Of a stretch of 49,245 bases of DNA, positions 1 to 40,666 are shown in pieces. The notes under the pieces are model-generated. The model worked only from the letters and a program-made list of their open reading frames with translations. It searched no databases and had not been told where the DNA came from. Each line of letters starts with the position of its first letter. Positions within the stretch are counted from its first letter, which is position 1. The DNA is from Candidatus Daviesbacteria bacterium (GTDB lineage Bacteria; Patescibacteriota; Microgenomatia; Daviesbacterales; UBA10151). The translations under genes were made by a program, and so were the position numbers. Location of the stretch: positions 1 through 49,245 of the forward strand of contig JAQTPP010000004.1 in assembly GCA_028712705.1 (NCBI GenBank), read 5' to 3'.

Positions 1-99
1 TCCCGGCTCACACTAGTTGTAGATGAATTCCTAAACAGATACCATTACCATAGACCACATATTGGCTTAGGTATGAAGCCACCTTTAGAAAGAAGTTAG
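1..99 (+). mobile_element. 3' end of a DDE transposase/integrase gene (rve-type C-terminus), cut by the window edge
   Basis: Frame 1 reads SRLTLVVDEFLNRYHYHRPHIGLGMKPPLERS then TAG at 97-99. The Y-x-x-x-RPH-x-x-LG-x-x-PP tail is typical of IS3/IS481-like integrase cores. Confidence 0.6.
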
Positions 100-1126: not shown

Positions 1127-2101
1127 ATGCTTAAATTTGAGGACAACTATCCGCTAAATAAAATTACCACCTTACAAATTGGTGGTCCTGCCAGAAAATT
1201 TGTCAAAGTTAAAACAGATGAAGAATTAATAAAAGCCATAAAATATGCCAAAGATCAATTAATGCCTTATCTGATAATTGGCGGCGGCAGCAACTTACTA
1301 GTTTCTGATGAAGGGTTCGACGGTTTAGTCATCAAAAATGAAATCACTGGTAGTATCTCCACCTCGAAGGTGGGCTTTGACTCCTTCGAGGTGAGTACTA
1401 AAAGCGGAACTCCTTTACAAGATCTTGTTGATTACACCATAGCTCACGGATTATCTGGCTTACAAAAACTCACTGGGATTCCGGGAACTATTGGTGGAGC
1501 AGTTTATGGTAATGCCGGGGCATACGGCCAAACCATCAGCGGCCATCTCTCAAACATTGTCATTCTGGCTTGTCCAGAATCTGATTCTGGATGCGCTTCG
1601 CTTACCAGAATGACACTGTCTAAAAGAGACTGTAACTTTAATTATCGGGACAGTATCTTTAAGAAAACCCATGACATTATTTTAGAAGTAATTTTCCAGC
1701 TTGAATTAGGTGATCCGAAAATCTTACAACAGGAAACTCAAGATATTTTAGCTAAGCGTTTAGTTAAATATCCGCCCGGCATAAAATGCCCCGGATCTTT
1801 TTTCAAAAATATTATAGCTACCAGCTTACCACAAGAAATCTTACAGAAAATTCCCCCAGAAAAAATTATCTATGGAAAATTACCTGCCGCAGCGCTCCTT
1901 GAACAAGTGGGCGCTAAAGGACAGAAACTTGACGGGATAGAAATCGCCACCTATCATGCCAATTTATTTATTAATAAGGGTCATGGATCAGCCAAAGCTT
2001 TTTATAATTTGGCCAAAAAATACGCCAAGAAGGTAAAAGAAAAATTCGGCATCACCTTAGAACCCGAAGTCCAGCTAATCAATTTACCAACCTTAATATA
2101 A
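1127..2101 (+). CDS. murB: UDP-N-acetylenolpyruvoylglucosamine reductase
   Basis: N-terminal FAD-binding pattern (LQIGGPA, IGGGSNLLVSDEGFDGLVI), GIPGTIGGAVYGNAGAYG, NFNYRDSIFK, and C-terminal MurB-like EPEVQLI. Carries two palindromic insertions (see repeats). Confidence 0.9.
   Translation: MLKFEDNYPLNKITTLQIGGPARKFVKVKTDEELIKAIKYAKDQLMPYLIIGGGSNLLVSDEGFDGLVIKNEITGSISTSKVGFDSFEVSTKSGTPLQDLVDYTIAHGLSGLQKLTGIPGTIGGAVYGNAGAYGQTISGHLSNIVILACPESDSGCASLTRMTLSKRDCNFNYRDSIFKKTHDIILEVIFQLELGDPKILQQETQDILAKRLVKYPPGIKCPGSFFKNIIATSLPQEILQKIPPEKIIYGKLPAAALLEQVGAKGQKLDGIEIATYHANLFINKGHGSAKAFYNLAKKYAKKVKEKFGITLEPEVQLINLPTLI
1360..1393. repeat. Perfect 11-bp inverted repeat CACCTCGAAGG / CCTTCGAGGTG (12-nt loop) inside murB
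   Basis: Read directly at 1360-1370 and 1383-1393. Encodes STSKVGFDSFEVS. Same stem family as 16477-16516 in tsaD. Confidence 0.85.
1559..1614. repeat. Palindromic MITE/RPE-like element inside murB (termini GTCATTCTGG ... CCAGAATGAC)
   Basis: Alternating ATTCTGG/CCAGAAT arms. The first ~33 nt are nearly identical to the copy at 19384-19440 in valS. Translated as VILACPESDSGCASLTRM. Confidence 0.85.
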
Positions 2102-6262: not shown

Positions 6263-6362
6263 ACAGCCAAAAATGTTAGACTTTTGTGTACGAAACACAA
6301 CCTCCAAAAATCAGGAAAGATAGAATAATTTATATATTTATAACTGATTAAAAATCAATAAA

Positions 6363-7100
6363 TCATTGAAGCTTTTTAAGATCCACCCTATCTCCGCTAG
6401 CATTTATAGACAGTTTAAACAAATTATGTCTCAAATACCCATTATCTTTAAGGAGGTAAATATAATAACTAAATTCTTCTTCACCCATTGGTCCAGCTAA
6501 AATTATCCATTTAAAATCACATTTTTTTAGAAAATCTCTAATCTCATTTGGATTAAAATTGCCTACTGCGTTACAAAATATAAACAAGTAAGATCCTTCA
6601 GCGTAGCGATTGCCCTTCTTTTTACGTTTCAACGCGTCCTTGATTCCTTCTGTTACTTTCTCATCCCAGGTCTCCTCATATATGTAAACTTGTTCTATTC
6701 GGTAATAAGTTCTAGTTTTAATATTTACTACTACACCGTCATCGTATTCTTGATTAAGAATAGCTGGTGCATAAGAGGATTTGTGCAACTTACTAAAAAA
6801 TAATGATAAAATTACTAAACCTAAATGCTCACGCAAGCTTAAGTTACCATCAATTTTTTTACTATTTTTCAATTGACCAATCCTTAATTTGGGAACAAGA
6901 AAATTAGCAAAGCAATCTTCCAATGAGGCTTTTGTCATCAAATAGAATTCTTCTTTCATAGAGGTTTTAAACTTAAATTTTAGCATCATTACCCCGAAAA
7001 TTTTCGTATTCTGCAACTCCAAGAGTTTCAAATTATCAATCCGGTATTTTTTAACCCTCTTTTTTAATCTCTTCCGGAAGCTTTGCTTAAAACTGTCCAC
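6363..7100 (-). CDS. Hypothetical protein, very AT-rich. The true start may be the internal ATG near 6989.
   Basis: 245-aa ORF with a GTG start. The first ~15 codons lie in a direct repeat that recurs at 7982-8030, so the N-terminus is doubtful. No motif recognised with confidence. Confidence 0.4.
   Translation of the reverse strand: MDSFKQSFRKRLKKRVKKYRIDNLKLLELQNTKIFGVMMLKFKFKTSMKEEFYLMTKASLEDCFANFLVPKLRIGQLKNSKKIDGNLSLREHLGLVILSLFFSKLHKSSYAPAILNQEYDDGVVVNIKTRTYYRIEQVYIYEETWDEKVTEGIKDALKRKKKGNRYAEGSYLFIFCNAVGNFNPNEIRDFLKKCDFKWIILAGPMGEEEFSYYIYLLKDNGYLRHNLFKLSINASGDRVDLKKLQ
7043..7092. repeat. Left copy of a ~45-nt imperfect direct repeat bracketing the Bro-N/DinD-like gene
   Basis: GGTATTTTTTAACCCTCTTTTTTAATCTCTTCCGGAAGCTTTGCTTAAA versus GGTATTTTTATCCCTCTTTTTTAATCTCTTCCGGAATCTTTCTAAAG at 7982-8030. 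25 nt are identical (7055-7079 = 7993-8017). Confidence 0.85.
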
Positions 7101-7140
7101 CCCGTTGACTTTTGGGTATTATTTGGTTTAGAGTAAAACT

Positions 7141-7968
7141 ATGACAGGCGAAATTACTAAAATTGCAATCTTCAGGCAAAAAGAAATCCGGAAAATAATT
7201 CATAAAAATGAATGGTGGTTTTCAATCATTGATATAATTGAGGCACTCACGAGAACCGACCGTCCAAGAAAATATTGGAGCGACCTAAAGAAAAAACTTG
7301 TTAATGAAGGATATTCTGAGGTGTCCGAAAAAATCGGACAACTGAAATTAGAAGCACCAGATGGGAAAAAATATCTAACAGATTGTGCAAACACGGAAAC
7401 TATGTTTCGAATAGTCCAATCAGTCCCCTCTCCTAAAACAGAACCTCTTAAGCGTTGGCTTGCAAGAGTGGGTTTTGAACGGATACAAGAGATCGAAGAC
7501 CCAGAACTTGCCCAAAAAAGAGCCAGGGCATTATATAAAGCAAAAGGGTATCCGGATGAATGGATTGAAAGACGAATGAGGGGTATTGCCATTCGTGAAG
7601 AATTAACTAATCAGTGGCAGAAGCATGGGGTAGAAAAACCAAAGGAATACGAGATTCTTACTGCGGAAATATCCAAAGCCACATTTGGTGTTACTCCAAC
7701 GGAATATAAGAAACTAAAGAGATTAAAGAGAGAAAACCTACGAGATCACATGAATGACTTAGAATTACTATTTTCTCAACTTGGTGAAGCTGCTACAACT
7801 GAAATTACCAAGACAGAACATCCTAAGGGTTTTGATGAGAATAAACCTGTTTCCAGACGCGGTGGGAAAATTGCCGGCGATGCAAGAAGAAAACTTGAAA
7901 TTGAAACAGGACGAAAAGTTATCAGCCAATTAAATTATTTACCCGAAGAGCAAAAGAAATTAAAATAA
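7141..7968 (+). CDS. Bro-N domain / DNA-damage-inducible protein D (DinD)-like protein
   Basis: 275 aa. F....IR.....NEWWFSIIDIIEALT......KYWSDLKKKL is the Bro-N pattern. The remainder resembles DinD-family proteins. Confidence 0.7.
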   Translation: MTGEITKIAIFRQKEIRKIIHKNEWWFSIIDIIEALTRTDRPRKYWSDLKKKLVNEGYSEVSEKIGQLKLEAPDGKKYLTDCANTETMFRIVQSVPSPKTEPLKRWLARVGFERIQEIEDPELAQKRARALYKAKGYPDEWIERRMRGIAIREELTNQWQKHGVEKPKEYEILTAEISKATFGVTPTEYKKLKRLKRENLRDHMNDLELLFSQLGEAATTEITKTEHPKGFDENKPVSRRGGKIAGDARRKLEIETGRKVISQLNYLPEEQKKLK

Positions 7969-7981
7969 TGTTTCTTTGAAG

Positions 7982-8030
7982 GGTATTTTTATCCCTCTTT
8001 TTTAATCTCTTCCGGAATCTTTCTAAAGAC
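7982..8030. repeat. Right copy of the direct repeat bracketing the DinD-like gene
   Basis: See 7043-7092. Confidence 0.85.
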
Positions 8031-8046
8031 AAACTTCCCTGTCTTT

Positions 8047-8074
8047 ACGATATACGATAAACAATATACGATAT
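8047..8074. repeat. Heptamer tandem array (ACGATAT/ACGATAA/ACAATAT/ACGATAT) immediately upstream of the PfkB kinase gene
   Basis: Four consecutive 7-nt units read directly. TATACT at 8072-8077 lies 7 nt before the ATG at 8085. Confidence 0.7.
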
Positions 8075-8084
8075 ACTAACTTAG

Positions 8085-9077: not shown

Positions 9078-10323
9078 TATCAAAGATAAACATTTAGCCC
9101 CTAAAGGCAAACTGCGCATTGAATGGGCCGGATCCCAAATGAAAGTGCTGAGTATTATAAAAGAGCGTTTCGGAAAAGAAAAACCTCTCAAAGGAATAAC
9201 TTTGGGAGCTTGTCTGCATGTCACCTCAGAAACCGCCAATTTAATGATTGCTTTAAAAAATGGTGGTGCTTCCTTGGCTCTTTGTGCTTCAAACCCGCTT
9301 TCTACCCAAGATGAAGTGGCTGCATCTTTGGTAGAAGACTATAACATCCCAACTTTTGCCAAAAAAGGAGAGGATAAAGATACCTATTATAAACATCTAA
9401 ACCAGGTTTTGGACTTTCATCCGCAAATTACCATGGATGACGGAGCGGATTTGGTAACTTTGCTACATACAGAGAGAAAATCACAGCTTAAAGATATCAT
9501 CGGCTCGTCTGAGGAAACAACCACAGGGGTAATCAGACTTAGGGCCATGCTGAAAGACGGCACGCTAAATTTACCGGTGATGGCGGTAAATGACTCTAGT
9601 ACCAAACACATGTTTGATAACCGTTATGGCACGGGCCAGTCAACTATTGATGGAGTGATCCGGGCCACCAATGTGCTTTTGGCCGGCAAAAAGTTTGTGG
9701 TTTGCGGTTATGGCTGGTGCGGCAGAGGTTTGGCGCAACGGGCCCGAGGTATGGGATCGCTGGTAATAATCACAGAAGTTGATCCGCTTAAAGCCTTGGA
9801 GGCTACCATGGATGGATATGAGGTAATGCCAATGGATCAAGCCATCAAAATTGCAGACATTATTTGTACGGCCACCGGTAATAAAACAGTCCTCTCTGTG
9901 GAGCATTTTAAAGAAATGAAAGACGGTGCCATTGTGGCCAATACCGGACACTTTAACATAGAGTTTGATTATGAAGGACTGGTAAAAATTGCCAAAAACA
10001 GAAGATTGTTGCGGGATAATTTGGAAGAAATTACTTTGGAGGATGGGAAAAAGGTCTTTGTGCTCGCAGAAGGCAGACTGATCAATTTAGCCTCGGCAGA
10101 AGGCCATCCGCCTGATGTAATGGATATGTCTTTTGCCAATCAAGCCTTGGCCGCAGAATTTTTGGTACAAAACCGCGGCAAACTTAAGGCAGATGTTTAT
10201 ACTGTGCCAAAAGAGCTGGATGAGATGATTGCCAAATTAAAACTGGAATCATTAGGCATTAAAATTGACTCTTTAACAGAAGAACAAAAAAAGTACCTAG
10301 CCTCCTGGAATGAAGGAACATAA
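9067..10323 (+). CDS. ahcY: Adenosylhomocysteinase
   Basis: 418 aa. [46 protein letters not shown], and the NAD-binding GYGWCGRG. Classic SAH hydrolase. Confidence 0.93.
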
Positions 10324-10325
10324 AT
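10278..10325. repeat. 3' end of ahcY, which is duplicated at 11044-11090
   Basis: AGAAGAACAAAAAAAGTACCTAGCCTCCTGGAATGAAGGAACATAAA versus AGAAGAACAAAAAAATACCTGGCCTCCTGGACTGAAGGAATATAAA (1 indel, 3 mismatches). Confidence 0.9.
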
Positions 10326-10358
10326 TTAATATGGCTTACTGGTAGCGCTTGTTGATGC

Positions 10359-10646
10359 TCATTGGATTGTGATATTAATTTTAGTATTAAGAGCGTGGGC
10401 TACCCTGGTCAAAAGAGAAATTGAGGGCTTGGCATTCATCCCTTCTAGGCGGGAAATAACCGCTTGTCCTGTCCCTACTTTTTTGGCTAAATCTTGCTGA
10501 GAAAGTTTTTGCTTCAACCTGGCTTCAATAATTTGCCTGGCAATTTGAAACTCCGGTTCCAGCTTTTGGTATTCTCGCTGATATTCCAAATCTTTCATCC
10601 ATTCGTGATGCAGTTGTTGATGGGTATAAAATTTTTTTTGTTTCAT
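10359..10646 (-). CDS. XRE-family HTH antitoxin (HigA-like)
   Basis: 95 aa. LSQQDLAKKVGTGQAVISRLE is a Cro/C1 HTH. Lies directly downstream of the toxin gene. Confidence 0.8.
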   Translation of the reverse strand: MKQKKFYTHQQLHHEWMKDLEYQREYQKLEPEFQIARQIIEARLKQKLSQQDLAKKVGTGQAVISRLEGMNAKPSISLLTRVAHALNTKINITIQ

Positions 10647-10647
10647 A

Positions 10648-10950
10648 CTAAATTTCCTTTATGCGTTTTATGGCCAGTTCTAAATCCATCTTAGGAGTCT
10701 TTTGAGACTTTTTATGAATACCATGTACAACATAAGCTTCATGACCTTTAAGAGTCAAAAATAATCTAACATTACCTGGTCTCAACTCCCAAACAACACT
10801 TTTCAACTTCTTCAAATATTTGCTTGGCAGAAATGTGCCATATTCTTCAAATAAATAATAAGCTCTGTCTACCCGTGCTTTTTCTTCCTTAGTCAATGAC
10901 TCAATAAATTCTCTAGCTTTTGAATAGGTTATTATTGTATATCTAACCAT
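10648..10950 (-). CDS. RelE/ParE-superfamily toxin (HigB / phage Gp49-like)
   Basis: 100 aa. A..FI..L...E.A.V......L.E.G..LP..Y.K.L...VWELR....R.F is typical of Gp49/HigB-type toxins. 1-nt spacer to the antitoxin. Confidence 0.8.
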   Translation of the reverse strand: MVRYTIITYSKAREFIESLTKEEKARVDRAYYLFEEYGTFLPSKYLKKLKSVVWELRPGNVRLFLTLKGHEAYVVHGIHKKSQKTPKMDLELAIKRIKEI

Positions 10951-10956
10951 ATTTTA

Positions 10957-10979
10957 TGATAAATTTATCATATTGTCAA
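10957..10979 (-). promoter_or_regulatory. Putative promoter/operator of the HigBA-like pair
   Basis: On the minus strand, TTGACA (10979-10974) is followed by the perfect 14-nt palindrome TGATAAATTTATCA (10957-10970), just before the toxin ATG. Confidence 0.5.
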
Positions 10980-11043
10980 CTGTTAATTTTAAAGAATTAA
11001 TTTAACAATAAGCCAAATAATTCCCGAAGTCAAGATAGCAAGT

Positions 11044-11090
11044 AGAAGAACAAAAAAATACCTGGCCTCCTGGACTGAAGGAATATAAAG
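11044..11090. repeat. Non-coding duplicate of the ahcY 3' end (right boundary of the HigBA cassette)
   Basis: See 10278-10325. Confidence 0.9.
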
Positions 11091-13048: not shown

Positions 13049-14893
13049 TCAAAAAATAATATGTTTTATTATCTCTTTATTTAACTTATCAAATGACTCA
13101 GGTAGCTTCATTCCTGTTTCTGTAATTTCTTCAATATACTCAATCATCTTGATTTCAAATTTATTGATTAAATCAAGACTATTAATCTTTTTCTCTTTTG
13201 CCTTCTTCTCTAAATATTTTTTAATTTTTTTACCTCTACCTGGACCATCCATAGTTTGTCTGTATTGAAAAGTAAGCCCAAATTCATTTTTTAACTTATC
13301 AAAAATATTTTTTATATATTCAGTTGAAATAACATCCTCAATATCAGACCAAGTAGAATCAATATCGTCTAAATAGATTTTTTCACTCGCTTCTAGGTTC
13401 GGGGTATTTACACTTTTCCAATCTCCATCAAAAACACCGAGCACTTTCCTACCATCCTGCTTTATTCCCTTGGCTCGCTCATCAATTAAACTTGCTCGAC
13501 CAACTCCTCTAACTGCAACTCTACTAAAATCTATTTCTGGCACCCCAGACAAAATCACTTTTTGTTTTTCAGTACTCATTACAACTACATTATCTAATTT
13601 ACCTTCCATTAAAACATTAAATTCTCCTACAGGAATAAAATCAGTCCAGTAAAAGCCGAGGGCAGTTGTTAGAAGGTCGCTCTGTCTTATATCTGTTTGT
13701 TTAATTTCATTATTAATCCTCGAACAACTTATTTGATCCCCTTTTTCGTCTGATTCTTTTGTAATAATCCTTACATTTCTACCTAATCTATTCTTAGAAA
13801 TCATAAAGGGAGAATGAGTCGAATATATAATCTGATTATTTTTCCCAAGTGTCTCAAGAATTCTTACTAAATCCTTTTGTCCGCCTGGGAAGAGTTTATC
13901 GCCAGGCTGATCAAGTAGAATTACACTATTTGCTCTTTCGCCGATTCCTAGCCGCACAAAAAATGAAACTAGCCAATTTACACCATCGCTACTGAAAGCG
14001 GGTTCTATATTACCAGCTCTACCATGATTGAAATATACTTTTAATAAACCCTCTCTTGGAGAAATTTTTAATTTTATCTTTGGTTTAAAATTCCAGTTTT
14101 CCTTAAATATTTCGTTTACTGTTTCCGTAACATTATTGCAATATGTTTCTATTTCAGCGCTTGTACCGTTTGATAAGATTTCTCTAAAATCTCCATCTGA
14201 TGGTTTCTTCTCAAAAGATTTTAAGAGTAACTTAGATAGTGGAAGTTCTAGATTGGAGATTATCTGATCTATCGGATTATCCTCTGCTATAAAATCCTCA
14301 TCCTTTGGAGTCCAAACATTCATTACAATTGGTAATAAACCTTTTATAGTCTCATCTATCGCTGATTTAAGCGCATTATTTACCTCATCAGCAGACATTG
14401 GAGTCAATTGTAGTTTAATTTCTTCGCTAAGGTTAGCCTCGGCAATAATTCCACCAGACGGTAAAACCTCTTCCTGAATTAGAATCTCACTTCCGGTATC
14501 ATTCCTGTAATAATCCTTACCAACATACAAGGATTCGGGGCTTGGGTTTTGCAAAATCCATTCTTTATCAGTTTTCTTAATTTCAATAATATCATCGGGA
14601 AATTTAAAATCTAATTTTGGATGTTTATAAGGAATAACGAATTCAAGTTTATACAGTAATTCCGGTCCAGTACCACTCGAATTTCTCCTTTTATCTCTAT
14701 TTATATCTAAGGGGACATTGGGTGATAATAATTCTATCGCTCTTAAAATATTACTTTTGCCCGCATTATTAGGGCCTACAACAACAGTAACATCATCAAT
14801 AAAAATCTCCTCATCCTCAAATGATCTGAAATTTATCAGCTTAATTGATTTTATTTTAATATTCATCGCACATATTTTAATCCTAGAATCCAT
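13049..14893 (-). CDS. OLD-family ATP-dependent nuclease (ABC-type ATPase plus C-terminal Toprim)
   Basis: IKLINFRSF...VVVGPNNAGKSNIL (Walker A), VILLDQP (Walker B-like), YSTHSPF (H-loop), Toprim E in NVLMEGKLD and DxD in GVFDGDW. The likely true start is MNIKIKSIKL at 14866. Confidence 0.8.
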   Translation of the reverse strand: MDSRIKICAMNIKIKSIKLINFRSFEDEEIFIDDVTVVVGPNNAGKSNILRAIELLSPNVPLDINRDKRRNSSGTGPELLYKLEFVIPYKHPKLDFKFPDDIIEIKKTDKEWILQNPSPESLYVGKDYYRNDTGSEILIQEEVLPSGGIIAEANLSEEIKLQLTPMSADEVNNALKSAIDETIKGLLPIVMNVWTPKDEDFIAEDNPIDQIISNLELPLSKLLLKSFEKKPSDGDFREILSNGTSAEIETYCNNVTETVNEIFKENWNFKPKIKLKISPREGLLKVYFNHGRAGNIEPAFSSDGVNWLVSFFVRLGIGERANSVILLDQPGDKLFPGGQKDLVRILETLGKNNQIIYSTHSPFMISKNRLGRNVRIITKESDEKGDQISCSRINNEIKQTDIRQSDLLTTALGFYWTDFIPVGEFNVLMEGKLDNVVVMSTEKQKVILSGVPEIDFSRVAVRGVGRASLIDERAKGIKQDGRKVLGVFDGDWKSVNTPNLEASEKIYLDDIDSTWSDIEDVISTEYIKNIFDKLKNEFGLTFQYRQTMDGPGRGKKIKKYLEKKAKEKKINSLDLINKFEIKMIEYIEEITETGMKLPESFDKLNKEIIKHIIF

Positions 14894-15042: not shown

Positions 15043-15048
15043 AATTAC

Positions 15049-15285: not shown

Positions 15286-15686
15286 CTACCCGAAAGATTG
15301 ATTTCCTAATAATAAGCCAAGTCCTATTCATCCATGATCAAATGGTAAAAAGATTCGGTGGTTCTCATGGAATTCGGGATATAGGACTGATACAGTCAGC
15401 GGTAGCAAGACCGCAAGCTACTTTTGGCGGTAAATATCTTTATAGTTCCATATTTGATAAGACAGCAGCACTGCTCCAGTCTTTATTAAAAAATCACGCA
15501 TTCTTGGATGGAAACAAACGCACAGCCTTAACCTCTGCGGGTCTATTCTTATGGAAAAATGGGTATAGGTTAGTTAATAATCATAAAGAAGAGGTGGACT
15601 TTACAATAAGAGTTGATAACGGGAATTTAACCATTGAACAAATCTCTAAATGGCTAAAAGAACATTCTGGTAAAATAACCAAATGA
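15282..15686 (+). CDS. doc: Doc (death-on-curing) Fic-family toxin
   Basis: HAFLDGNKRTALTSAGLFL matches the Fic/Doc motif HxFx(D/E)GNKR. Confidence 0.9.
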   Translation: MTTRKIDFLIISQVLFIHDQMVKRFGGSHGIRDIGLIQSAVARPQATFGGKYLYSSIFDKTAALLQSLLKNHAFLDGNKRTALTSAGLFLWKNGYRLVNNHKEEVDFTIRVDNGNLTIEQISKWLKEHSGKITK

Positions 15687-25973: not shown

Positions 25974-27191
25974 TTATTTTACCACGGAGAATGATAATCC
26001 CCAGACCAAAAAGAGTAACCGATAGCCTTGAGGCAAAGTTAAAAAGTAATGGTCAAACATGCCCAGGAAAAGAATTATAGCCCAAGGGTATAGGGTATAG
26101 GGTTTAGGGTTTAGTCGAAAAAGCCTTAAAAAAGGAAATCCTATTAGGCTTATTAGTCCTATCAAACCAATAATCCCTGTCTCAGACAAAGTCAGTAAAA
26201 TTATGTTATGGACCGGTTGCAGAAACCTGTTTGGACCTACAATTAAATCGGAAGCTTGCGCCGGAATAAAATTATTCAAGCCTATACCAAAGATGGGCGA
26301 TTTTGTAAACATCTGCCATGCGTTTCCCATTAATTCCTCACGCCGCAGCAGTGTCAAATTATCAAAGTTTAAAAGACTAGAAAACCTGGTAAAAAGAACG
26401 GGGGATAAAAATAGTCCAACCAAAATTAGTATAATTTTCCACTTTCTATTTAGGAGCATAAGCCCAAGCCCAAAACCTGCCAGAATAGCTGCCCGCGAAA
26501 CCGCCAGGAGGATTGTCATTCCTGCGAATGCGCCACTTCGAAGAAGCAAGTACTCTTGGGGTGCAGGAATCCAATTAACCACCCTTCGGCGGAATGACAA
26601 AATAGCAATAACAATTAACATAAACCCCGCCAAAACATTCGGGTGGGGAAAAGTGGCATAAGGCCGCAAAAACTGTCTGCCATAAAAATCAAATTTGGCA
26701 ATTGCGGGAGTGGAGATAGAAAATGTCCTTTCCCCCAAAATCCAAAGCCCCAAAGTTCCTCCTTTGACAAACTGCAAAGTAGCCAAAATTGCTTCAAATA
26801 AAACTGCCAGGATTAGCGGCCAATACAACTTGTTACTTATAACTTGTAACTTGTAACTTGCCAAATAAACCCCAAAAAAACCGGCTATCGTATATTGTTC
26901 AAGCCTAACTAAACCGGCTCCGATATTTGATGCGCCAAAAAGGGACAGCGCTTGACTAAACAAAAAGAGCAGGAATAAATTTAGGGCAATTTTGTTAATA
27001 TGGGGTTTGCGCAGCGCCCAAACTATCAAAAGTCCTATTGCTAGGATATCCCAGAAATACAGTGTTGGGGACAGATAATCAATTTTTAAGGAATAAACAT
27101 AACTAAATTCCGGCCAAAAATGTAAACCAAGTTGGGTTGGAAGAAAAAGTACAGTTAAAAAAAGTAAGATCTTTTCAAGCTTGAATAACAT
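25974..27191 (-). CDS. O-antigen ligase / Wzy-like membrane protein
   Basis: 405-aa polytopic protein. The central loop SRAAILAG...LL and the overall architecture fit the Wzy_C family. Contains two heptamer arrays. Confidence 0.65.
   Translation of the reverse strand: MLFKLEKILLFLTVLFLPTQLGLHFWPEFSYVYSLKIDYLSPTLYFWDILAIGLLIVWALRKPHINKIALNLFLLFLFSQALSLFGASNIGAGLVRLEQYTIAGFFGVYLASYKLQVISNKLYWPLILAVLFEAILATLQFVKGGTLGLWILGERTFSISTPAIAKFDFYGRQFLRPYATFPHPNVLAGFMLIVIAILSFRRRVVNWIPAPQEYLLLRSGAFAGMTILLAVSRAAILAGFGLGLMLLNRKWKIILILVGLFLSPVLFTRFSSLLNFDNLTLLRREELMGNAWQMFTKSPIFGIGLNNFIPAQASDLIVGPNRFLQPVHNIILLTLSETGIIGLIGLISLIGFPFLRLFRLNPKPYTLYPWAIILFLGMFDHYFLTLPQGYRLLFLVWGLSFSVVK
26086..26113. repeat. Heptamer array GGGTATA x2 plus GGGTTTA x2 inside the Wzy-like gene
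   Basis: Read directly. Encodes PKPYTLYP on the minus strand. Confidence 0.8.
26827..26861. repeat. Heptamer array (AACTTGT)n inside the Wzy-like gene
   Basis: AACTTGT TACTTAT AACTTGT AACTTGT AACTTGC read directly. Encodes ASYKLQVISNKL. A related TGTTACT array lies between genes at about 19869-19897. Confidence 0.8.
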
Positions 27192-31428: not shown

Positions 31429-32532
31429 ATGAAATTTTTTTGTTTACAACAAGACCTTTTGCCGTTTTTGCAGTCAGCTGCAAGATCAATAGGGATTAGA
31501 TCAACTCTTCCTGTACTGGACAATATTTTATTATCAGCCGAAGGGCAAAAGCTCAAGATCGCTGCTACCAACCTGGAGATAGGAGTGATTAAGTATCTAA
31601 ATGTTGAGGTGGAAATTCCCGGCAGTATTACAGTTCCTGCCAAAACTCTGGTTGAACTTGTTTCCGGTCTTGGTCAAAATAAAATCAGCTTAGAACTAAA
31701 AGGTGAAATTTTAACTGTAGAATCAGGCAAATTCAAAGCAATAATTAACGGTATTGCTGCGACGGAGTTTCCGGCCATTCCATTATCTTCTTCCTCAGGT
31801 ATCAGTCTGCCTAAAGAGGCATTTTTAACTTCTTCCCAGATTCTGTTTGCTTCGGCTGTTGATGAAGGCAGACCGGTTTTAACCGGAATCTTAACAGATA
31901 TCTCTGCCAACAAGCTGGATTTTGTGGCAACAGACGGTTTTAGGCTTGCCCACCGCCGGTTAGAATTGCCCAAAGGGAACGTTCAATTTAAAAGTTTAAT
32001 ACCGAGAAAAACTTTTGAAGAGGTATTGAGGTTGATGGCAGAGGAGCAAGACTTGGAAGAAGTAGGTATCGCCACCAGCGAGAACCAGAATCAGATCGTG
32101 TTTAGTTTAGGTTCCACTCAGGTCTCGTCAAGATTGATTGAAGGTCAATTTCCTGCCTGGAGCAAAATTATTCCTCAAAAAATTATTGCCAGAGCTGCGG
32201 TTACAAAAGAGGAATTCTTGAAAGCAATCAAGCTGGCAGCGATTTTTGCCAAAAATGAGGCCAATATAGTTATTTTGACCACAAAGAAAGGTTTTCTTAA
32301 ACTGGAATCTCATGCTAAAGAAGTCGGCAGTCAGGAAAATGAGATTGAGGGCGATGTGGAGGGGGACGAACTTACGATCGCCTTTAATACTAAATTCTTA
32401 ATGGACGCCATTTCAAATTCCCCTTCAACTCAAGTTTTGATGGAATTTTCAGGGCCCTTATCTGCTGCTTTGATTAAACCGATAGGGGTAGAGGGACTGG
32501 AATATATAGTAATGCCAGTAAGATTAAATTGA
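31429..32532 (+). CDS. dnaN: DNA polymerase III beta sliding clamp
   Basis: 367 aa with three-domain clamp length. LPVLDNILL, ATNLEIG, VATDGFRLA and LIEGQFP motifs. Confidence 0.92.
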   Translation: MKFFCLQQDLLPFLQSAARSIGIRSTLPVLDNILLSAEGQKLKIAATNLEIGVIKYLNVEVEIPGSITVPAKTLVELVSGLGQNKISLELKGEILTVESGKFKAIINGIAATEFPAIPLSSSSGISLPKEAFLTSSQILFASAVDEGRPVLTGILTDISANKLDFVATDGFRLAHRRLELPKGNVQFKSLIPRKTFEEVLRLMAEEQDLEEVGIATSENQNQIVFSLGSTQVSSRLIEGQFPAWSKIIPQKIIARAAVTKEEFLKAIKLAAIFAKNEANIVILTTKKGFLKLESHAKEVGSQENEIEGDVEGDELTIAFNTKFLMDAISNSPSTQVLMEFSGPLSAALIKPIGVEGLEYIVMPVRLN

Positions 32533-35824: not shown

Positions 35825-35839
35825 AAGATTAAGGTACCA

Positions 35840-37597
35840 CTAAATTTTCTGTCTTGCCAGTATTTCAGCAGGATTTGAAGTAATCAATTGATGTTCCTCC
35901 GGAGAAGCTACCACCCTCATTGCCACATGGGTATTGCCGGCAAAAAATATCCCTTCACCGATTCCTTCTGACATCAAAAGTCTCTGTTCTCCTTCTGACA
36001 GGTTAAAAACATGGGCCAAAAGGTCGATTGAAGCAGGAGCTTGTTTCAGGAGAATTTGGATTGATGAATTGGAAATAATTTCTTTACCCCGCTCGTTGCC
36101 TAAGAAATCCTCTACGTCTTGCGTAATGGTGGTTAAGCCTAAATAATATTTCCTGGCACGTTTGGCCATGTCTACCAAAAAATCCGCCGAATCCTGATTC
36201 CGCATTAAATACCATGCTTCATCAACAATTAAAAGTCTTTTTTTGAGCTTGCCTCTGATTTTGGTCCATATGTAATCTAAGATCATATGAATAGACAGCG
36301 GTCTTAACTGGTCCGGCAAATCGCGGACCGAAAATACTGTAAACGAGTTGGAAATATCAACATTGGATTGGGTGGAGAAAATACCGGCGAGCGATCCTTT
36401 AATAAATCGCTCCAGCCTGGCTGCGAGCTCCATGGCTACAGCTTCTTCCATCCCGATCAAAACTTTGTATAAGTCTTCCATTAAAGGAGGAGTCAGGTTT
36501 TGGGTTTTAGGGTCATCTGTGATTCCTTTGAGCTGGTATGTTTGTTTTAAGGCTCTATCCAGTATGGCGGCTTCTTGGGCATTTAGCGTTCCCAAAACCA
36601 ATTTTAAAAAACCGGTTAAAGACAAAATTTTACGGCCCAGTTCATTTTCGCCCGGAGTTACTTCGGCTGACATATCAAACGGATTGATTTTTACCGGAGA
36701 CGAAGGGGAGAAATTAATATATTCTCCACCAACAGCTTGGGCCAAAATTTTGTATTCCTGCTCCGGGTCAATGACAATTATTTCTGTCCCAAACATTAAA
36801 GATCTGAGGGCTTCAAGTTTAACTAAATACGATTTGCCGGCTCCGCTTTTGGCGAAAATAACCGAGTTTGCATTTTCTAAACTGAATCTGTCAAACAAAA
36901 TCAGAGAACCGTTATGCTCGTTAATGCCGTACATGATTCCCTCGTTGGCAGTCAGTTCAGACGAGGCAAACGGGAAAGTTGTAGCTAGCGACGTGGTATC
37001 CATGTTATGAGCGAGATTTAGAAGATCTTTCCCTTGCGGCAAGGTGGATTTGAAGCCGTCCTCCATTTGCAGTGTTACCTGTTTGGCGGTTATAGAAAGG
37101 GAAGCAAGTGTTGATTCAACCAGCTTTGAAGTGCTTTGCAGCTCTTCCAAGCTCTCTGCCGGTACAGTAATATAGAGGGCAAATTGGAAGAATCGTTCAA
37201 CCCCCCTGACAAGCTGGTCTTGTAAGCTCCTTGCATCTTCCAAGGCTACTTCGACCGCAGGATCCACTGCTCTGCCCCGTTCAAGATCGGTCTGGATCGT
37301 GGCTTCCATTTCAGCTACTTTGCGCTTTAGTTCGTCCAGCACCCCTTGTGATTGTGACGGGTAAATAAACATCGAAACAAGGAGCGAATGGTCAAAAGAA
37401 ATTAGCGGTTCAAGCCAGTTAGGCTCAACAAATCTGGGGTAAGCCGATACAAAATAAGTCCGGAAAAAGCGGCTGTCTATCTTCAGATGACTAAACTCAA
37501 CTTCTATTTCGCCCGGAGCAATCACATCCTCAACGGTTAATCGGGGTTGCAGTTGTTCCTGAGTTTTTATTTTTCTAAATAAATTTGGTAGCTTCAT
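35840..37597 (-). CDS. virB4: VirB4/TrbE/CagE-family type IV secretion ATPase
   Basis: Walker A AKSGAGKSYLVK, Walker B LLIVDEAWYL, and an N-terminal YP..V..NWL pattern typical of Gram-positive-type VirB4. Confidence 0.88.
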   Translation of the reverse strand: MKLPNLFRKIKTQEQLQPRLTVEDVIAPGEIEVEFSHLKIDSRFFRTYFVSAYPRFVEPNWLEPLISFDHSLLVSMFIYPSQSQGVLDELKRKVAEMEATIQTDLERGRAVDPAVEVALEDARSLQDQLVRGVERFFQFALYITVPAESLEELQSTSKLVESTLASLSITAKQVTLQMEDGFKSTLPQGKDLLNLAHNMDTTSLATTFPFASSELTANEGIMYGINEHNGSLILFDRFSLENANSVIFAKSGAGKSYLVKLEALRSLMFGTEIIVIDPEQEYKILAQAVGGEYINFSPSSPVKINPFDMSAEVTPGENELGRKILSLTGFLKLVLGTLNAQEAAILDRALKQTYQLKGITDDPKTQNLTPPLMEDLYKVLIGMEEAVAMELAARLERFIKGSLAGIFSTQSNVDISNSFTVFSVRDLPDQLRPLSIHMILDYIWTKIRGKLKKRLLIVDEAWYLMRNQDSADFLVDMAKRARKYYLGLTTITQDVEDFLGNERGKEIISNSSIQILLKQAPASIDLLAHVFNLSEGEQRLLMSEGIGEGIFFAGNTHVAMRVVASPEEHQLITSNPAEILARQKI

Positions 37598-38364
37598 TCT
37601 CCTAACTCCTCCACTACAAAGGGATGTGTTTTTGTGCCTTGAGTGGTTATTGGTCCTGTCACAGGCGGGATTGATGGCGTTGGTTGTGGCGCTGCGGGAT
37701 TAAAAGTTGGTTGTGCGGCCGAAGGCCCTGAGCGAGCGTCAGCGAGTCGAATGGGTTGTTTTAATTTAACTGCTAATTCTTGCGGATTGACGATTTGTCC
37801 CGGCGGTTTTTCTTCAACTTGACCATTATAGATATAATAAAAAACTTCAATCAATTTTTGTTTGGTCATCTGCATTGCTTTCAGATTGACTCTGCCTAGT
37901 TGTCTGATAATTTGATCCCGTCTTGGTATGAGTATTGTTTTAATTTTTCCCTCCAAACTTTCTTTGGATGGAGTTAGCCCCAGCTCTAGCGCGAAAAGCG
38001 GAATGACAATATAAAACCTTTTATCCAATACCTCATTTTCTTTGATTGTAGTTTGGATAAATTGTCTATACCCCGTAATCATTTGTGAAAGCAGCGGGTT
38101 GTTTTGGGCTTTTTTGGCGTCATCCAATATTTTCAGATAAGAGCTGATGTTGAGCCTTTCCGAATGAACAACAATTTGGATGCTGAATGATAAGGAATTA
38201 AGCATTTGGGCGAATGCGGAAATGATAGCCACTTGTTCCCTGTCTGAAAGCAAGCCAAAATTAACAGCGCTGACTTGCAGAACAAGCGCCCCGCCCCCGT
38301 CTTTCAGTAAAAGAATATCATCCTGAATATCTGAAATAGATAAATGCTCCTGTGTTGTATTCAT
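37594..38364 (-). CDS. T4SS accessory protein resembling a free-standing VirB4 N-terminal domain
   Basis: I.DI.DDILLLKDGG.ALVLQVS.VNF.LLS..EQ..II..F...LNSL.F..QIVV mirrors the VirB4 N-domain pattern. Pro/Thr-rich C-terminus. 4-nt overlaps on both sides. Confidence 0.4.
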   Translation of the reverse strand: MNTTQEHLSISDIQDDILLLKDGGGALVLQVSAVNFGLLSDREQVAIISAFAQMLNSLSFSIQIVVHSERLNISSYLKILDDAKKAQNNPLLSQMITGYRQFIQTTIKENEVLDKRFYIVIPLFALELGLTPSKESLEGKIKTILIPRRDQIIRQLGRVNLKAMQMTKQKLIEVFYYIYNGQVEEKPPGQIVNPQELAVKLKQPIRLADARSGPSAAQPTFNPAAPQPTPSIPPVTGPITTQGTKTHPFVVEELGE

Positions 38365-39380
38365 GATTTTGCTGTAATCACTAAAGGCGGTAAAACTTCT
38401 CCGGTTAATTCAATCTGTAATACATCAAAAGTGTAATTGTCTTTTTCAAGCTCCAAAGTATAAGTTTTATTAGGCAGCGGCGTTGAACCGGTAAATTGAC
38501 CGAGTTTATTTGTTTTTAGAGCTCTGACCGGCAGGCCCTCTTTGTCGTAGATAACTGCCACTACGCCTTCCAAATAATTATTGTTCCTGTCTTTGACAAT
38601 GCCGTTTATGACATTTGGAAATGTGGTTAGCGCAACCTGCGCTTGTTTGGGTTTCACAGGTATTACTACTTTGACTTTTTCCCTGAATACAGGTTCAGAA
38701 ATAGGAACTTGAGGTTGAGCTGTTGGTTCCTGGATAGATTTAATTTGCTGTTTCACTTCGGAAGCTTGATTAACCAGGTTTTTTAAATCCGTTAAGATCT
38801 TGCTGGCTTGTTGGCTATAGTCAACTGGTATAGGCGTGGGTTGCGTTGCTTGTTCCTTAATTTGCGATAAAGTCCGCTCCGACTGGATGATCCTCATTTG
38901 TAGCTGTTGCGCCTCTTGAGCCAGGTCTACTGTTTTTTGCAGCTCCTCCTGTGTTGGTAAAGGCGCAGGGCGCGTAATTTGAGGGGTAGTTACAGCAGAC
39001 GGTTTGGTTTGAGGAACGTTTTGAGCGCCGGCAAGATACATTACCAGACGACTGCTAAACAACGGGTCTTCTTTGTAAGCTTTTCCGTTTTTCGCCCAGG
39101 TTCTTTTGGTAGGTGAATAAACAGCTTTCAAAAATGCTGCTAACCAGTGATCCAGCGCCCGTGATCCAATCGGCACAAAAGCAAAAGCAATACCTAAAAT
39201 GGTCGAAGCAATAACAATCGGCCAGGCTATGATTGGATAATCGTGTGAGAAAAGGACAAAAACCAGATAAGCAAACCCTGCGCCGGCAGCCAGATAGCCG
39301 AATTGCTTTAGAGTCATATCCCCGACCAGCTTGAACTGGAAACTTGTCACATTTTGCGGGATTGGATGCACCTCTTCCAT
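38361..39380 (-). CDS. PrgI/VirB3-like membrane protein with coiled coil and C-terminal carboxypeptidase-regulatory-like beta domain
   Basis: IPQNV.SFQFKLVGDMTLKQFGYLAAGAGFAYLVF plus a second TM helix is the PrgI-family pattern. C-terminal NGIVKD.NNNYLEGVVAVIYDKEG.PVRALKTNKLGQF. Confidence 0.6.
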   Translation of the reverse strand: MEEVHPIPQNVTSFQFKLVGDMTLKQFGYLAAGAGFAYLVFVLFSHDYPIIAWPIVIASTILGIAFAFVPIGSRALDHWLAAFLKAVYSPTKRTWAKNGKAYKEDPLFSSRLVMYLAGAQNVPQTKPSAVTTPQITRPAPLPTQEELQKTVDLAQEAQQLQMRIIQSERTLSQIKEQATQPTPIPVDYSQQASKILTDLKNLVNQASEVKQQIKSIQEPTAQPQVPISEPVFREKVKVVIPVKPKQAQVALTTFPNVINGIVKDRNNNYLEGVVAVIYDKEGLPVRALKTNKLGQFTGSTPLPNKTYTLELEKDNYTFDVLQIELTGEVLPPLVITAKS

Positions 39381-39793: not shown

Positions 39794-40666
39794 ATGTCAG
39801 TAGAAACACTTTCACGTCGAGAACAAGCCGCAGAAGAACTGGCTTCTTCTATTCAGGAAACACATAGAATTCCTGACCCTTATCATTTTGAGATTACACC
39901 GTATGGTGAATTATTTTCTCCTAGTGCACGTTGTCTGGTTAAAGATAAAAGAGTTATTGATAAAACAAGCCCTCTGGGACGATTGGAATATCAAGCTTTG
40001 CTTTCTATAGAGCAATGGGCAGTCAGTCGTAATGAGGGAGTAATTGTCTGGGTTAGCCCTCCCTATCCTGGAGCATATTCTGTCTTAAAAATAATTGTCA
40101 GCGAGATAGAGTATGAGAATGGTCTCAAAAGATTATTTAACCGGGCTATTTTATTTGATTTTGATGAGAATCAGTCTCTGGAATTTACCCGTGGTTTGGC
40201 GCAGTTTAGCCAGAACCAGCCAAATTTTTTCAATCTTGATCAGGTCAGGGCAACCCCGCTGATTTTAAAGACCCATGGCAATTTTTGGATCCATGCCTTA
40301 GAAGAGTTAATTGATGCGCCTGCTGTATGGGAAATGGTCAGAATTGGAGAAGATAGAAGACTGAAAGAAGAGGCTCTTAGACAGGCTACAATGGTCCAAA
40401 AAGAGTTTTTCTCAATTCCAGGGCTATATTCTACAGATGAAGCGCAAATGGCTATTAAGCAAGTACTGGGGCCATACTCGGGTAGCTGCCCCCCTAAGAC
40501 TGCTTTTCAGGTATTTTCAGAGAATTCTTTAGTAGTGGGTGATGGGGTAAATACTAAAGATCCTGATTTTTGTAGGAATTGTCCTGTTTGTGGTGAAGCA
40601 ATAAATTGTATTGTCAGAGCCGGCCAGAGCTGTCCTAGCTGTAGGACAGTTAAAAGATGCGGATAG
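39794..40666 (+). CDS. Uncharacterised soluble protein with a C-terminal Cys-rich (zinc-ribbon-like) cluster, downstream of the B12 riboswitch
   Basis: 290-aa ORF. AGGAG lies 5 nt upstream of the ATG. No TM segment. C-terminal C-x2-C-x2-C-x5-C-x8-C-x2-C-x6-C. No domain recognised. Confidence 0.6.
   Translation: MSVETLSRREQAAEELASSIQETHRIPDPYHFEITPYGELFSPSARCLVKDKRVIDKTSPLGRLEYQALLSIEQWAVSRNEGVIVWVSPPYPGAYSVLKIIVSEIEYENGLKRLFNRAILFDFDENQSLEFTRGLAQFSQNQPNFFNLDQVRATPLILKTHGNFWIHALEELIDAPAVWEMVRIGEDRRLKEEALRQATMVQKEFFSIPGLYSTDEAQMAIKQVLGPYSGSCPPKTAFQVFSENSLVVGDGVNTKDPDFCRNCPVCGEAINCIVRAGQSCPSCRTVKRCG

What the first reader, a model, noticed from the sequence alone, without database searches (positions are those of the whole stretch)
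1559..1614. The same palindromic mini-element sits inside murB and valS coding sequences (RPE-like in-frame insertion)
GTCATTCTGGCTTGTCCAGAATCTGATTCTGGA... in murB matches GTCATTCTGGCTTGTCCAGAATCAGATTCTGGA... in valS (19384). Both end in CCAGAATGAC, giving 10-nt terminal inverted repeats and alternating ATTCTGG/CCAGAAT arms. Both are read through without a stop, adding the shared peptide VILACPESDSG to two unrelated essential enzymes. This is the behaviour described for Rickettsia palindromic elements, which insert in frame into protein genes. I am not aware of it being characterised for this element family.
Basis: partly seen in the sequence, partly recalled or inferred. Interest (0 to 1): 0.7.

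Follow-up and report, generated by a model that had tools for sequence, protein, structure and literature searches.

The report
In-frame palindromic mini-elements in CPR genes
Two essential genes of an uncultured Daviesbacteria (CPR) genome each carry a copy of the same 56-57-base palindromic repeat, read through as extra protein loop; the repeat is scattered across many CPR genomes, about 40% of copies in frame inside genes, much like the Rickettsia palindromic elements.

Summary
Window 1559-1614 (murB) and 19384-19440 (valS) are two copies of one repeat. Its layout is Y-GTCATTCTGG-loop-CCAGAATC-W-GATTCTGG-loop-CCAGAATGAC-R. Both copies are read through in frame and share VILACPESDSG.

The genome is a Candidatus Daviesbacteria (CPR/Microgenomates). 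The family is dispersed. The truncated reference-genome scan and the metagenome scan together gave 147 distinct element-plus-flank instances, mostly from Microgenomates. 62 of them (42%) sit in frame inside long ORFs, including ValRS, ArgRS, PheT, DnaX, NusA, UvrA and a Mur ligase. The murB 56-mer is 100% identical to copies at unrelated sites in two other genomes.

Orthologues with an empty site exist. Others carry different GTCAT...ATGAC families in the same MurB hairpin and the same ValRS linker. The window holds two more in-frame elements of sister families, in tsaD and in a Wzy-like gene.

Predicted structures place the inserts in a beta-hairpin extension (MurB) and a disordered linker (ValRS).

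No target-site duplication, autonomous copy, RAYT homologue, viral copy or Rfam match was found. The mobilising mechanism is inferred, not shown.

Verdict: a real, apparently undescribed, RPE-like family. It is a new member of a known kind.

The parts
1559..1614 (+). murB copy of the ATTCTGG-family element (56 nt). TIRs are 1559-1568 and 1605-1614. Hairpin 1 arms are 1562-1568 and 1574-1580 (loop CTTGT). The central palindrome is 1574-1581 / T1582 / 1583-1590. Hairpin 2 arms are 1584-1590 and 1605-1611. It encodes MurB residues 145-163.
   Evidence: 100% identical to copies in L064 and L114 and to 6 metagenome hits
19384..19440 (+). valS copy of the same family (57 nt). TIRs are 19384-19393 and 19431-19440. 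Arms are 19387-19393, 19399-19405, 19409-19415 and 19431-19437. It encodes ValRS residues 593-611.
   Evidence: the same element is present in the syntenic relative with one substitution; a same-family element sits at the same ValRS site in Daviesbacteria L026
1127..2101 (+). Host gene murB (UDP-N-acetylenolpyruvoylglucosamine reductase, 324 aa)
   Evidence: Pfam; PDB 1HSK alignment; AF2 model, pLDDT 90
17608..19761 (+). Host gene valS (valine--tRNA ligase, 717 aa)
   Evidence: Pfam; PDB 1GAX alignment; AF2 model, pLDDT 83.5
16063..16147 (+). Sister-family element (85 nt, GTCATTGCGAG...CTCGCAATGAC) in frame in tsaD (ORF 15683..16822). It reads SLRASAKQSSTPNEEIATSVASLLPRND.
   Evidence: fold z = -5.4; the Pfam TsaD match is split into two stretches; the relative has an unrelated insert at the same spot
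26515..26598 (-). Sister-family element (84 nt, GTCATTCCGCC...GCAGGAATGAC) in frame in a Wzy_C/O-antigen-ligase-like gene (ORF 25974..27191, minus strand). It reads SFRRRVVNWIPAPQEYLLLRSGAFAGMT.
   Evidence: the relative carries the same element lacking 33 nt of the loop

Best explanation
The two sequences are copies of a small, non-autonomous palindromic repeat family, which I call the ATTCTGG family. An element has two hairpin modules in inverted order between 10-11-nt terminal inverted repeats: Y|GTCATTCTGG-loop-CCAGAATC-spacer-GATTCTGG-loop-CCAGAATGAC|R. Length is 55-139 nt and the variation lies in the loops and the spacer. The family is dispersed through Microgenomates and other CPR genomes.

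Shown: copies lie at many unrelated sites, both intergenic and genic, and identical copies occur in different genomes. Copies inside genes keep the reading frame and lack stops. They are therefore most probably transcribed and translated as part of the host protein. They add roughly 19-45 residues at structurally permissive places: a beta-hairpin turn in MurB and a disordered inter-domain linker in ValRS.

The family belongs to a wider set of families that share the GTCAT...ATGAC ends but have different, self-complementary arms. These families accumulate in, and turn over at, the same permissive loops of orthologous proteins.

Inferred: it is selfish DNA that survives in genes only where, and in the frames in which, the encoded peptide is harmless. 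This is the same logic as for the Rickettsia palindromic elements.

Inferred with low confidence (about 0.3): spread uses a hairpin- or single-strand-dependent route that leaves no target-site duplication. That could be a REP/RAYT-like or IS200/IS605-like HUH enzyme acting in trans, or ectopic recombination/gene conversion between elements that share termini. It is probably not DDE cut-and-paste.
For: Repeat and anatomy.

They come from Roizman-, Gottesman-, Levy-, Curtiss-, Davies- and Shapirobacteria, WWE3, Kazan and others. The metagenome scan found 41 loci carrying the minimal form, with at least 30 distinct flanks.

Recent or constrained copies: the murB 56-mer is 100% identical to L064 and L114, with unrelated flanks.

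Genic copies: 43/109 and 62/147 distinct instances lie in ORFs open for at least 50 codons on both sides. Pfam confirms real hosts: ValRS, DnaX, NusA, PheT, ArgRS, M17 peptidase, Mur ligase, UvrA, P-type ATPase, PMT, Wzy and DUF2298.

Translation rather than removal: 51 copies are in frame, against at most 6 possible frame-breaking cases with long ORFs on both sides. If the frame did not matter, about 100 would be expected. All length differences between orthologous copies are multiples of 3: 24, 33 and 36 nt.

Presence/absence and turnover: the MurB site is empty in P0007, and carries a GTCATTGCGAG-type element in P0021, an expanded ATTCTGG element in P0003 and a GTCATTCTGAG half-element in the syntenic relative. 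The ValRS linker carries several families.

Structure: the MurB insert forms the end of strand 141-148, loop 149-159 and the start of strand 160-165, at the 1HSK hairpin turn. The ValRS insert lies in coil 581-614, with pLDDT below 50 for residues 597-610, between 1GAX residues 590 and 608.

No TSD: 0/109 for k = 2, and only isolated chance-level matches for longer k. Position -1 is Y in 102/109 and +1 is R in 99/109.
Against: No mobilising enzyme was identified. E. coli RayT found nothing in 875 kb of element-flanking DNA. No transposase lies between solo termini. Whole genomes could not be searched.

No transposition event is directly documented, because no near-identical genome pair differs only by a clean insertion. 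The closest relative already has another GTCATTCTG-type sequence at the murB site.

Element lengths in genes fall in all three classes modulo 3. So genic copies are not simple insertions of a fixed unit, and the route by which the frame is kept is unexplained.

Translation is inferred from frame conservation only. No transcript or peptide data were available.

The peptide-motif classification of orthologue inserts is heuristic. It was checked at the DNA level for only a few loci.
Confidence: 0.85

Rival explanations
1. Not translated: the element is removed from the mRNA, or bypassed by the ribosome, as with the 'byp' elements in Magnusiomyces mitochondria or T4 gene 60. On this view the extra peptide never exists.
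For: The strong hairpin potential could support RNA processing or ribosome hopping. No expression data were available to exclude it.
Against: Removal or bypass would not require the frame to be kept. Yet 51 genic copies are in frame and stop-free, against at most 6 ambiguous cases. Those six look like elements between adjacent genes or at gene ends. All orthologous length differences are multiples of 3. No Rfam family matches.
Confidence: 0.05
2. A domesticated, functional DNA/RNA or protein module. The hairpins would serve the host, for example as a recombination or uptake signal, an mRNA stability element or a protein-interaction loop, and would be kept for that reason rather than as selfish DNA.
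For: The valS copy is kept in at least three Daviesbacteria. The arms stay complementary over long divergence. Exact 56-mers are shared across candidate phyla. Intergenic copies are frequent.
Against: Orthologues lacking any insert are common. Different families with unrelated peptides occupy the same loop. The insert is predicted to be disordered in ValRS. The heptamer ATTCTGG is rare outside the elements (8 hits in the window, 4 of them in the two elements), unlike a DNA uptake sequence.
Confidence: 0.08
3. Spread and turnover without any transposase. Elements would move only by homologous recombination of flanks after DNA uptake, and by ectopic gene conversion or template switching between hairpins that share the GTCATTCT termini.
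For: There is no TSD. No transposase or autonomous copy was found. At the murB site two families share the identical 5' junction and the first 9 nt, GTCATTCTG. A 214-nt tract around the valS element has 1 mismatch against a 17% background.
Against: Recombination of flanks cannot place copies at unrelated sites with unrelated flanks. Long identical tracts are common all along the synteny block, so the valS tract is not specific.
Confidence: 0.2
4. Ancestral or convergent protein sequence, or an assembly artefact.
For: None beyond the shared peptide itself.
Against: Identity is at the nucleotide level in unrelated genes. Empty orthologous sites exist. The same family appears in-frame in many independent assemblies from different studies and assemblers.
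Confidence: 0.01

Closest known systems
Rickettsia palindromic elements (RPE; Ogata et al. 2000, as summarised in PMC10969869)
   Same: Dispersed palindromic repeats. A large share sit in frame inside unrelated housekeeping genes. They are read through without stops and add a peptide at positions compatible with the fold. Several families coexist.
   Different: The host is CPR/Microgenomates, not Rickettsia. Size is 55-139 nt (minimal form 56 nt) against about 100-150 bp. The architecture is modular, with two hairpins and sharp 10-11-nt TIRs ending GTCAT/ATGAC. Exact copies are shared across candidate phyla. Different families repeatedly occupy the same loops. Sequence similarity to RPE consensus sequences was not tested.
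REP / REPIN (BIME) elements mobilised by RAYT (TnpA-REP, HUH Y1 transposases)
   Same: A short conserved 5' motif followed by a palindrome whose sequence varies between families while its complementarity is kept. Two inverted hairpin units form the mobile doublet. There is no target-site duplication.
   Different: REPs are by definition extragenic, whereas about 40% of copies here are genic. The conserved motif is GTCAT, not GTAG. No RAYT homologue was found in the 875 kb sampled. The two hairpin loops are consistently different, one short and one long, rather than mirror copies.
Bacterial MITEs that occur intragenically (Correia, ERIC, Coxiella QMITE1, cyanobacterial MITEs; PMC10969869, PMC3184786)
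   Same: Small size, terminal inverted repeats, no coding capacity of their own, and occasional in-frame fusions with host ORFs.
   Different: There is no TSD and no related autonomous IS with the same TIRs was found. The genic fraction is far higher than is usual for MITEs.
Mitochondrial GC-cluster / 'byp' mobile palindromes in yeasts
   Same: Short mobile palindromes that land inside protein-coding genes.
   Different: Those are bypassed or tolerated irrespective of frame. Here the frame is strictly kept, which argues for translation.

Membership tests
Rickettsia palindromic elements (RPE-1..10) | Sequence similarity to an RPE family consensus; host genus Rickettsia and relatives | not tested
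   No RPE reference sequence was compared. The host is Candidatus Daviesbacteria. At 56 nt the element is shorter than the roughly 100-150 bp RPEs described in PMC10969869. It is therefore not filed as an RPE member.
Rickettsia palindromic elements (RPE-1..10) | Palindromic repeat found in frame inside unrelated protein genes and read through | tested here: met
   (62/147 distinct copies lie in long ORFs, with the frame kept)
Rickettsia palindromic elements (RPE-1..10) | Insert lies at a surface or permissive position of the host protein | tested here: met
   MurB: extension of a hairpin turn. ValRS: disordered linker, pLDDT below 50. These are predicted models, not solved structures.
REP/REPIN-RAYT | Conserved short 5' motif plus an imperfect palindrome, with complementarity kept across families | tested here: met
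   GTCAT + ATTCTGG/CCAGAAT, GTCAT + TGCGAG/CTCGCA and GTCAT + TCC..GC/GC..GGA all occur in the window. The motif differs from the canonical GTAG.
REP/REPIN-RAYT | Inverted doublet of two REP units as the repeated unit | tested here: met
   Two inverted hairpin modules are separated by a 1-15-nt spacer in nearly all copies.
REP/REPIN-RAYT | Extragenic location | tested here: not met
   About 40% of copies lie inside ORFs.
REP/REPIN-RAYT | A cognate RAYT gene in the genome, typically flanked by the REPs | tested here: inconclusive
   tblastn with E. coli RayT against 875 kb of loci gave nothing below E = 0.1. Whole genomes could not be searched, and the query is distant.
MITE (DDE-transposase dependent) | Terminal inverted repeats and small size | tested here: met
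   10-11-nt TIRs, 55-139 nt
MITE (DDE-transposase dependent) | Target-site duplication flanking the element | tested here: not met
   0/109 for k = 2 and only isolated chance-level matches at longer k. k = 1 is depleted (6/109) because position -1 is Y and +1 is R.
MITE (DDE-transposase dependent) | A parent IS with the same TIRs | tested here: inconclusive
   Only 3 solo-terminus pairs lie 0.4-4 kb apart. One (403 nt) holds no ORF and the other two enclose housekeeping genes (CofD, GlpX, GAPDH, aldolase), not transposases. The sample is limited to fetched loci.

The most novel reading that the evidence does not exclude
CPR bacteria may carry a large superfamily of GTCAT-terminated hairpin elements. 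On this reading the elements spread across candidate phyla and home to, or replace one another at, the same permissive loops of essential proteins. They would do so by a route that leaves no target-site duplication and is guided by hairpins or shared termini. That would make them a main source of the lineage-specific insertions seen in CPR housekeeping proteins, and a system in which new surface loops are repeatedly tried out.
Probability: 0.3. Interest if true: 0.75.

Novelty: new member of a known kind. Interest (0 to 1): 0.6.

Why it matters
In-frame selfish palindromes in essential genes have mostly been treated as a Rickettsia curiosity. This window shows the same behaviour in the Candidate Phyla Radiation, and densely.

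- One 49-kb window holds four in-frame copies from three sister families, in murB, tsaD, valS and a Wzy-like gene.
- By peptide motifs, roughly a fifth to a third of Daviesbacteria MurB and ValRS orthologues carry some element at the same loop.

This has three consequences.

1. **Annotation and phylogenomics.** The elements inflate and scramble alignments of marker proteins. They also generate spurious small ORFs.
2. **Protein evolution.** They provide a natural library of tolerated loop insertions.
3. **Mobile-element biology.** This is a family with terminal inverted repeats, no target-site duplication and no known mobilising enzyme, in organisms reported to have few mobile elements.

I found no paper describing it in the searchable library.

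Tried and rejected
1. **RAYT search.** tblastn with E. coli RayT against all fetched loci (875 kb) gave no credible hit.

2. **Autonomous element search.** I looked for left and right termini 0.4-4 kb apart. Only three pairs turned up; one holds no ORF and the other two enclose housekeeping genes.

3. **Phage vector.** The family pattern has 0 matches in IMG/VR viral contigs.

4. **Known RNA family.** Rfam gives only a cobalamin riboswitch elsewhere in the window.

5. **DNA-uptake-sequence idea.** ATTCTGG/CCAGAAT is only mildly enriched outside the elements. Rejected.

6. **Recombination tract as evidence of lateral spread of the valS allele.** The 214-nt near-identical tract is real. However, similar tracts are common across the whole synteny block, so it is not specific evidence.

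7. **Frame-2 (xSFW) avoidance as evidence of peptide selection.** 0 of 62 genic copies use this frame. But stops close it in 44 of them. It is open and unused on the coding strand in only 12. This is suggestive only.

8. **Strict 12-nt-TIR scan for all GTCAT families.** The scan was too strict to be useful.

9. **Extended inverted homology of the murB flanks.** (I2) shows 9/13 matches beyond the TIR. The valS flanks show nothing comparable by my eye, so I treated it as chance.

10. **Reconstructing the exact ancestral empty site for murB.** This failed. The closest genome already carries another GTCATTCTG-type sequence there, and MurB orthologues are only about 72% identical or less.

Full report
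**1. The observation**

The window carries GTCATTCTGGCTTGTCCAGAATC exactly twice, at 1559 and 19384, with none expected by chance. Identity continues to 37 of 40 nt. Each copy ends in CCAGAATGAC. The ATTCTGG...CCAGAAT hairpin pattern occurs four times in the window, and only inside these two elements.

The anatomy is T|GTC-ATTCTGG-CTTGT-CCAGAAT-C-W-G-ATTCTGG-(14-15 nt)-CCAGAAT-GAC|A. The centre, CCAGAATC-W-GATTCTGG, is itself a palindrome. As single-stranded DNA both copies fold into a terminal stem that encloses a central hairpin. The energies are -17.7 and -15.1 kcal/mol, with z = -7.8 and -5.7.

The host ORFs are MurB (1127..2101) and ValRS (17608..19761) by Pfam. Both read straight through the element.

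**2. The organism**

The best MurB and ValRS relatives are all Candidatus Daviesbacteria or Microgenomates, that is CPR/Patescibacteria. The window also contains dnaA and dnaN, so it spans the replication origin region.

One public genome is syntenic with most of the window. It is GCA_028715175.1, contig JAQUSJ010000001.1, 743,708 bp. It allows a site-by-site comparison.

**3. A dispersed repeat family**

A structural pattern (ATTCTGG N3-20 CCAGAATC N1-12 GATTCTGG) was scanned against one genome per GTDB species. Nearly all hits are from these groups:

- Roizman-, Gottesman-, Levy-, Curtiss-, Davies- and Shapirobacteria, WWE3, Kazan and Howlettbacteria;
- MAGs labelled Saccharibacteria;
- several automatically labelled 'uncultured Gammaproteobacteria' MAGs, whose label I did not verify.

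The copies share the ends GTCATTCTGG/CCAGAATGAC and the inner arms. They differ in the two loops and the spacer, which gives lengths of 55-139 nt. One loop is typically short (CTTGT) and the other longer (for example GGAGCGAAGCGACT), so the element has a defined orientation. Both orientations occur.

A metagenome scan for the minimal form found 41 loci with at least 30 different flanks.

The murB 56-mer is 100% identical to a non-coding copy in a Gottesmanbacteria MAG (L064) and to a copy in another MAG (L114). The flanks are unrelated. It is also identical to six metagenome hits.

**4. Genic copies are common, in frame, and sit in real genes**

- Of 109 full elements in the reference-genome loci, 43 lie in ORFs open for at least 50 codons on both sides.
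- Pooling both scans and removing duplicates gives 62 of 147.
- Pfam on 20 host ORFs found ValRS, DnaX, NusA, PheRS-beta, ArgRS, an M17 aminopeptidase, a Mur ligase, UvrA, a P-type ATPase, PMT-type glycosyltransferases, Wzy-like proteins and DUF2298.
- With a stricter criterion of 80 open codons on each side, 51 copies are continuous in frame. At most 6 have long ORFs on both sides in different frames, and those look like elements between neighbouring genes or at gene ends.

If the element were spliced out or bypassed, frame-breaking copies should outnumber in-frame ones two to one. I therefore infer that genic copies are translated. No expression data were available to confirm this.

**5. Orthologue comparison**

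*MurB (120 orthologues).* The segment between the conserved AYGQ and YRDS motifs ranges from 16 to 63 aa. Many orthologues have no insert. Others carry peptides typical of different palindromic families, all starting V-I/V-... and ending ...M/V-T. At the DNA level:

- P0007 has an empty site.
- P0003 has the same family at the same 5' junction, with a 36-nt expansion of loop 1.
- P0021 has a GTCATTGCGAG-type element a few codons downstream.
- The syntenic relative has GTCATTCTGAGTGAAGCGAAGAAT, a single hairpin of yet another arm type. It starts at the identical nucleotide and is 24 nt shorter.

*ValRS (121 sequences).* The linker after the KLWNIGRFI helix varies from 21 to 62 aa among complete sequences. 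It carries at least five peptide types in different orthologues, and their start points differ by a few codons.

- The relative has the same 57-nt element with one substitution.
- Daviesbacteria L026 has the same family at the same place with a different left half.
- P0127 has a GTTATTGCGAG...CTCGCAATGAC element with the same 3' junction.

So both sites are hot spots. Elements of several families sharing GTCAT/ATGAC ends have arrived, persisted and changed there. Every length difference seen is a multiple of three.

**6. More copies in the window**

A scan for GTCAT...ATGAC inverted ends and for short-range inverted repeats found two further in-frame elements of sister families.

- An 85-nt GTCATTGCGAG...CTCGCAATGAC element lies at 16063-16147 in tsaD.
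- An 84-nt GTCATTCC...GGAATGAC element lies at 26515-26598 on the minus strand, in a Wzy_C-type gene.

The relative has an unrelated insert at the tsaD spot. It has the same Wzy element lacking 33 nt of loop.

**7. Position in the proteins**

*MurB.* The AlphaFold2 model has mean pLDDT 90. The element supplies the last residues of strand 141-148 (VILA), an 11-residue loop at 149-159, and the first residues of the return strand 160-165. In the S. aureus structure 1HSK this aligns to the turn of a beta-hairpin. The two element ends therefore encode the two strands of a hairpin, and the centre (PESDSG) encodes the turn.

*ValRS.* The model has mean pLDDT 83.5. The element lies in a coil at 581-614 between two helices, with pLDDT below 50 for residues 597-610. 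In T. thermophilus ValRS (1GAX) the corresponding linker is 17 residues, 591-607.

**8. How it may move**

There is no target-site duplication: 0 of 109 for 2 nt, and only isolated chance-level matches for longer lengths. The base before the element is a pyrimidine in 102 of 109 copies. The base after it is a purine in 99 of 109.

The following searches for a mobilising agent all came back empty:

- Only three pairs of solo termini lie 0.4-4 kb apart. One holds no ORF and the other two enclose housekeeping genes.
- E. coli RayT finds nothing in 875 kb of flanking DNA.
- There are no copies in viral contigs.
- No Rfam family matches.

Two features resemble REP/REPIN elements and IS200/IS605-type hairpin recognition more than DDE-type MITEs. 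First, a fixed terminal pentamer is combined with arms that differ between families but remain self-complementary. Second, the two hairpins are arranged as an inverted doublet. This part is inference, and I give it about 0.3.

Genic element lengths fall in all three classes modulo 3. So copies in genes are not simple insertions of a fixed unit. How the frame is preserved is unexplained. The candidates are selection among heterogeneous source copies, accompanying loss of host bases, or replacement of a resident element through the shared GTCATTCTG end.

**9. Checks that weakened tempting claims**

- The 214-nt tract around the valS element with one mismatch is not specific, because similar tracts are frequent along the synteny block.
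- No genic copy is read in the xSFW frame. However, stops close that frame in 44 of 62 copies.
- The heptamer is not a genome-wide uptake-type signal.

**10. Comparison with known elements, and novelty**

In behaviour this matches the Rickettsia palindromic elements as summarised in PMC10969869. In anatomy it is closer to REPIN-like doublets.

It fails one defining feature of each other candidate family. It is not extragenic, as REPs are. It has no target-site duplication, as MITEs do. I do not file it as an RPE member, because host, size and architecture differ and sequence similarity was not tested.

Seven literature searches found no description of such elements in CPR bacteria. Two papers were read as well. 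A complete Microgenomates genome paper states that its genome lacks mobile-element genes (PMC7143001). That statement concerns a different lineage.

I rate it a new member of a known kind, of moderate to good interest.

Noticed in passing
window 16063-16147 (+), in tsaD ORF 15683..16822: A third in-frame palindromic element, from a sister family (85 nt, GTCATTGCGAG...CTCGCAATGAC). It splits the Pfam TsaD match in two. The syntenic relative has an unrelated, partly heptamer-repeat (GTCGTCA) insert at the same spot.
   Followed up: yes
window 26515-26598 (-), in Wzy_C-like ORF 25974..27191: A fourth in-frame element (84 nt, GTCATTCC...GGAATGAC; peptide SFRRRVVNWIPA...GAFAGMT) in a membrane protein. 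The relative has the same element minus an exact 33-nt block of nested mini-palindromes in the loop.
   Followed up: yes
window 16477-16516 (+), in tsaD: A 40-nt near-perfect palindrome (CACCTCCGAGGTGGAA...TTACACCTCGGAGGTG) encoding HTSEVEKSSYTSEV. The relative carries a longer, different insert at this second tsaD hot spot.
   Followed up: partly
window 39585-39750 (+) and 39460-39565: A cobalamin riboswitch (Rfam RF00174, 53 bits) lies upstream of ORF 39794..40666, which has no Pfam match. It is preceded by a 106-nt AT-rich imperfect palindrome in the divergent intergenic region.
   Followed up: no
window 13049-15686: An AAA_15/AbiEii-like ATPase (614 aa), a MazE-like antitoxin and a Fic/Doc protein form a small island. 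The island has no counterpart between the PD-(D/E)XK gene and tsaD in the syntenic relative.
   Followed up: partly
window 6263-8081 and 10287-11089: Two further segments have no blastn match at the corresponding positions of the relative. One holds a BRO-N domain gene (7141..7968) bracketed by 37-nt direct repeats (7048-7084 / 7986-8022). The other holds a Gp49/HigB-like gene (10648..10950) bracketed by a 38-nt duplication of the 3' end of the AdoHcyase gene (10287-10324 / 11052-11089). These look like small integrated modules.
   Followed up: partly
window 33584-39380 (-): A type-IV-secretion-like cluster: a TraG/VirB4-type ATPase at 35840..37597, a PrgI-like protein at 38361..39380, and a 746-aa protein with no Pfam match. 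It lies next to the origin region (dnaA 29430..30797, dnaN 31429..32532).
   Followed up: no
L119 12166-12444 (relative genome), corresponding to window ~19765: The relative has a 92-aa '23S rRNA intervening sequence protein' gene directly after valS. The window lacks it.
   Followed up: no
L039 3104-3188 (Gottesmanbacteria): An element at the 3' end of a DUF2298 gene supplies the last ~50 codons (the element itself plus 24 more) and the stop. Elements can therefore also remodel protein C-termini.
   Followed up: no
loci L003, L011, L018-L019, L021, L033, L043 etc.: Many element-bearing MAGs are labelled 'uncultured Gammaproteobacteria' (TPA assemblies), although their elements match those of the Microgenomates MAGs. 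The labels may be wrong, or the family may reach beyond CPR. I did not check.
   Followed up: no
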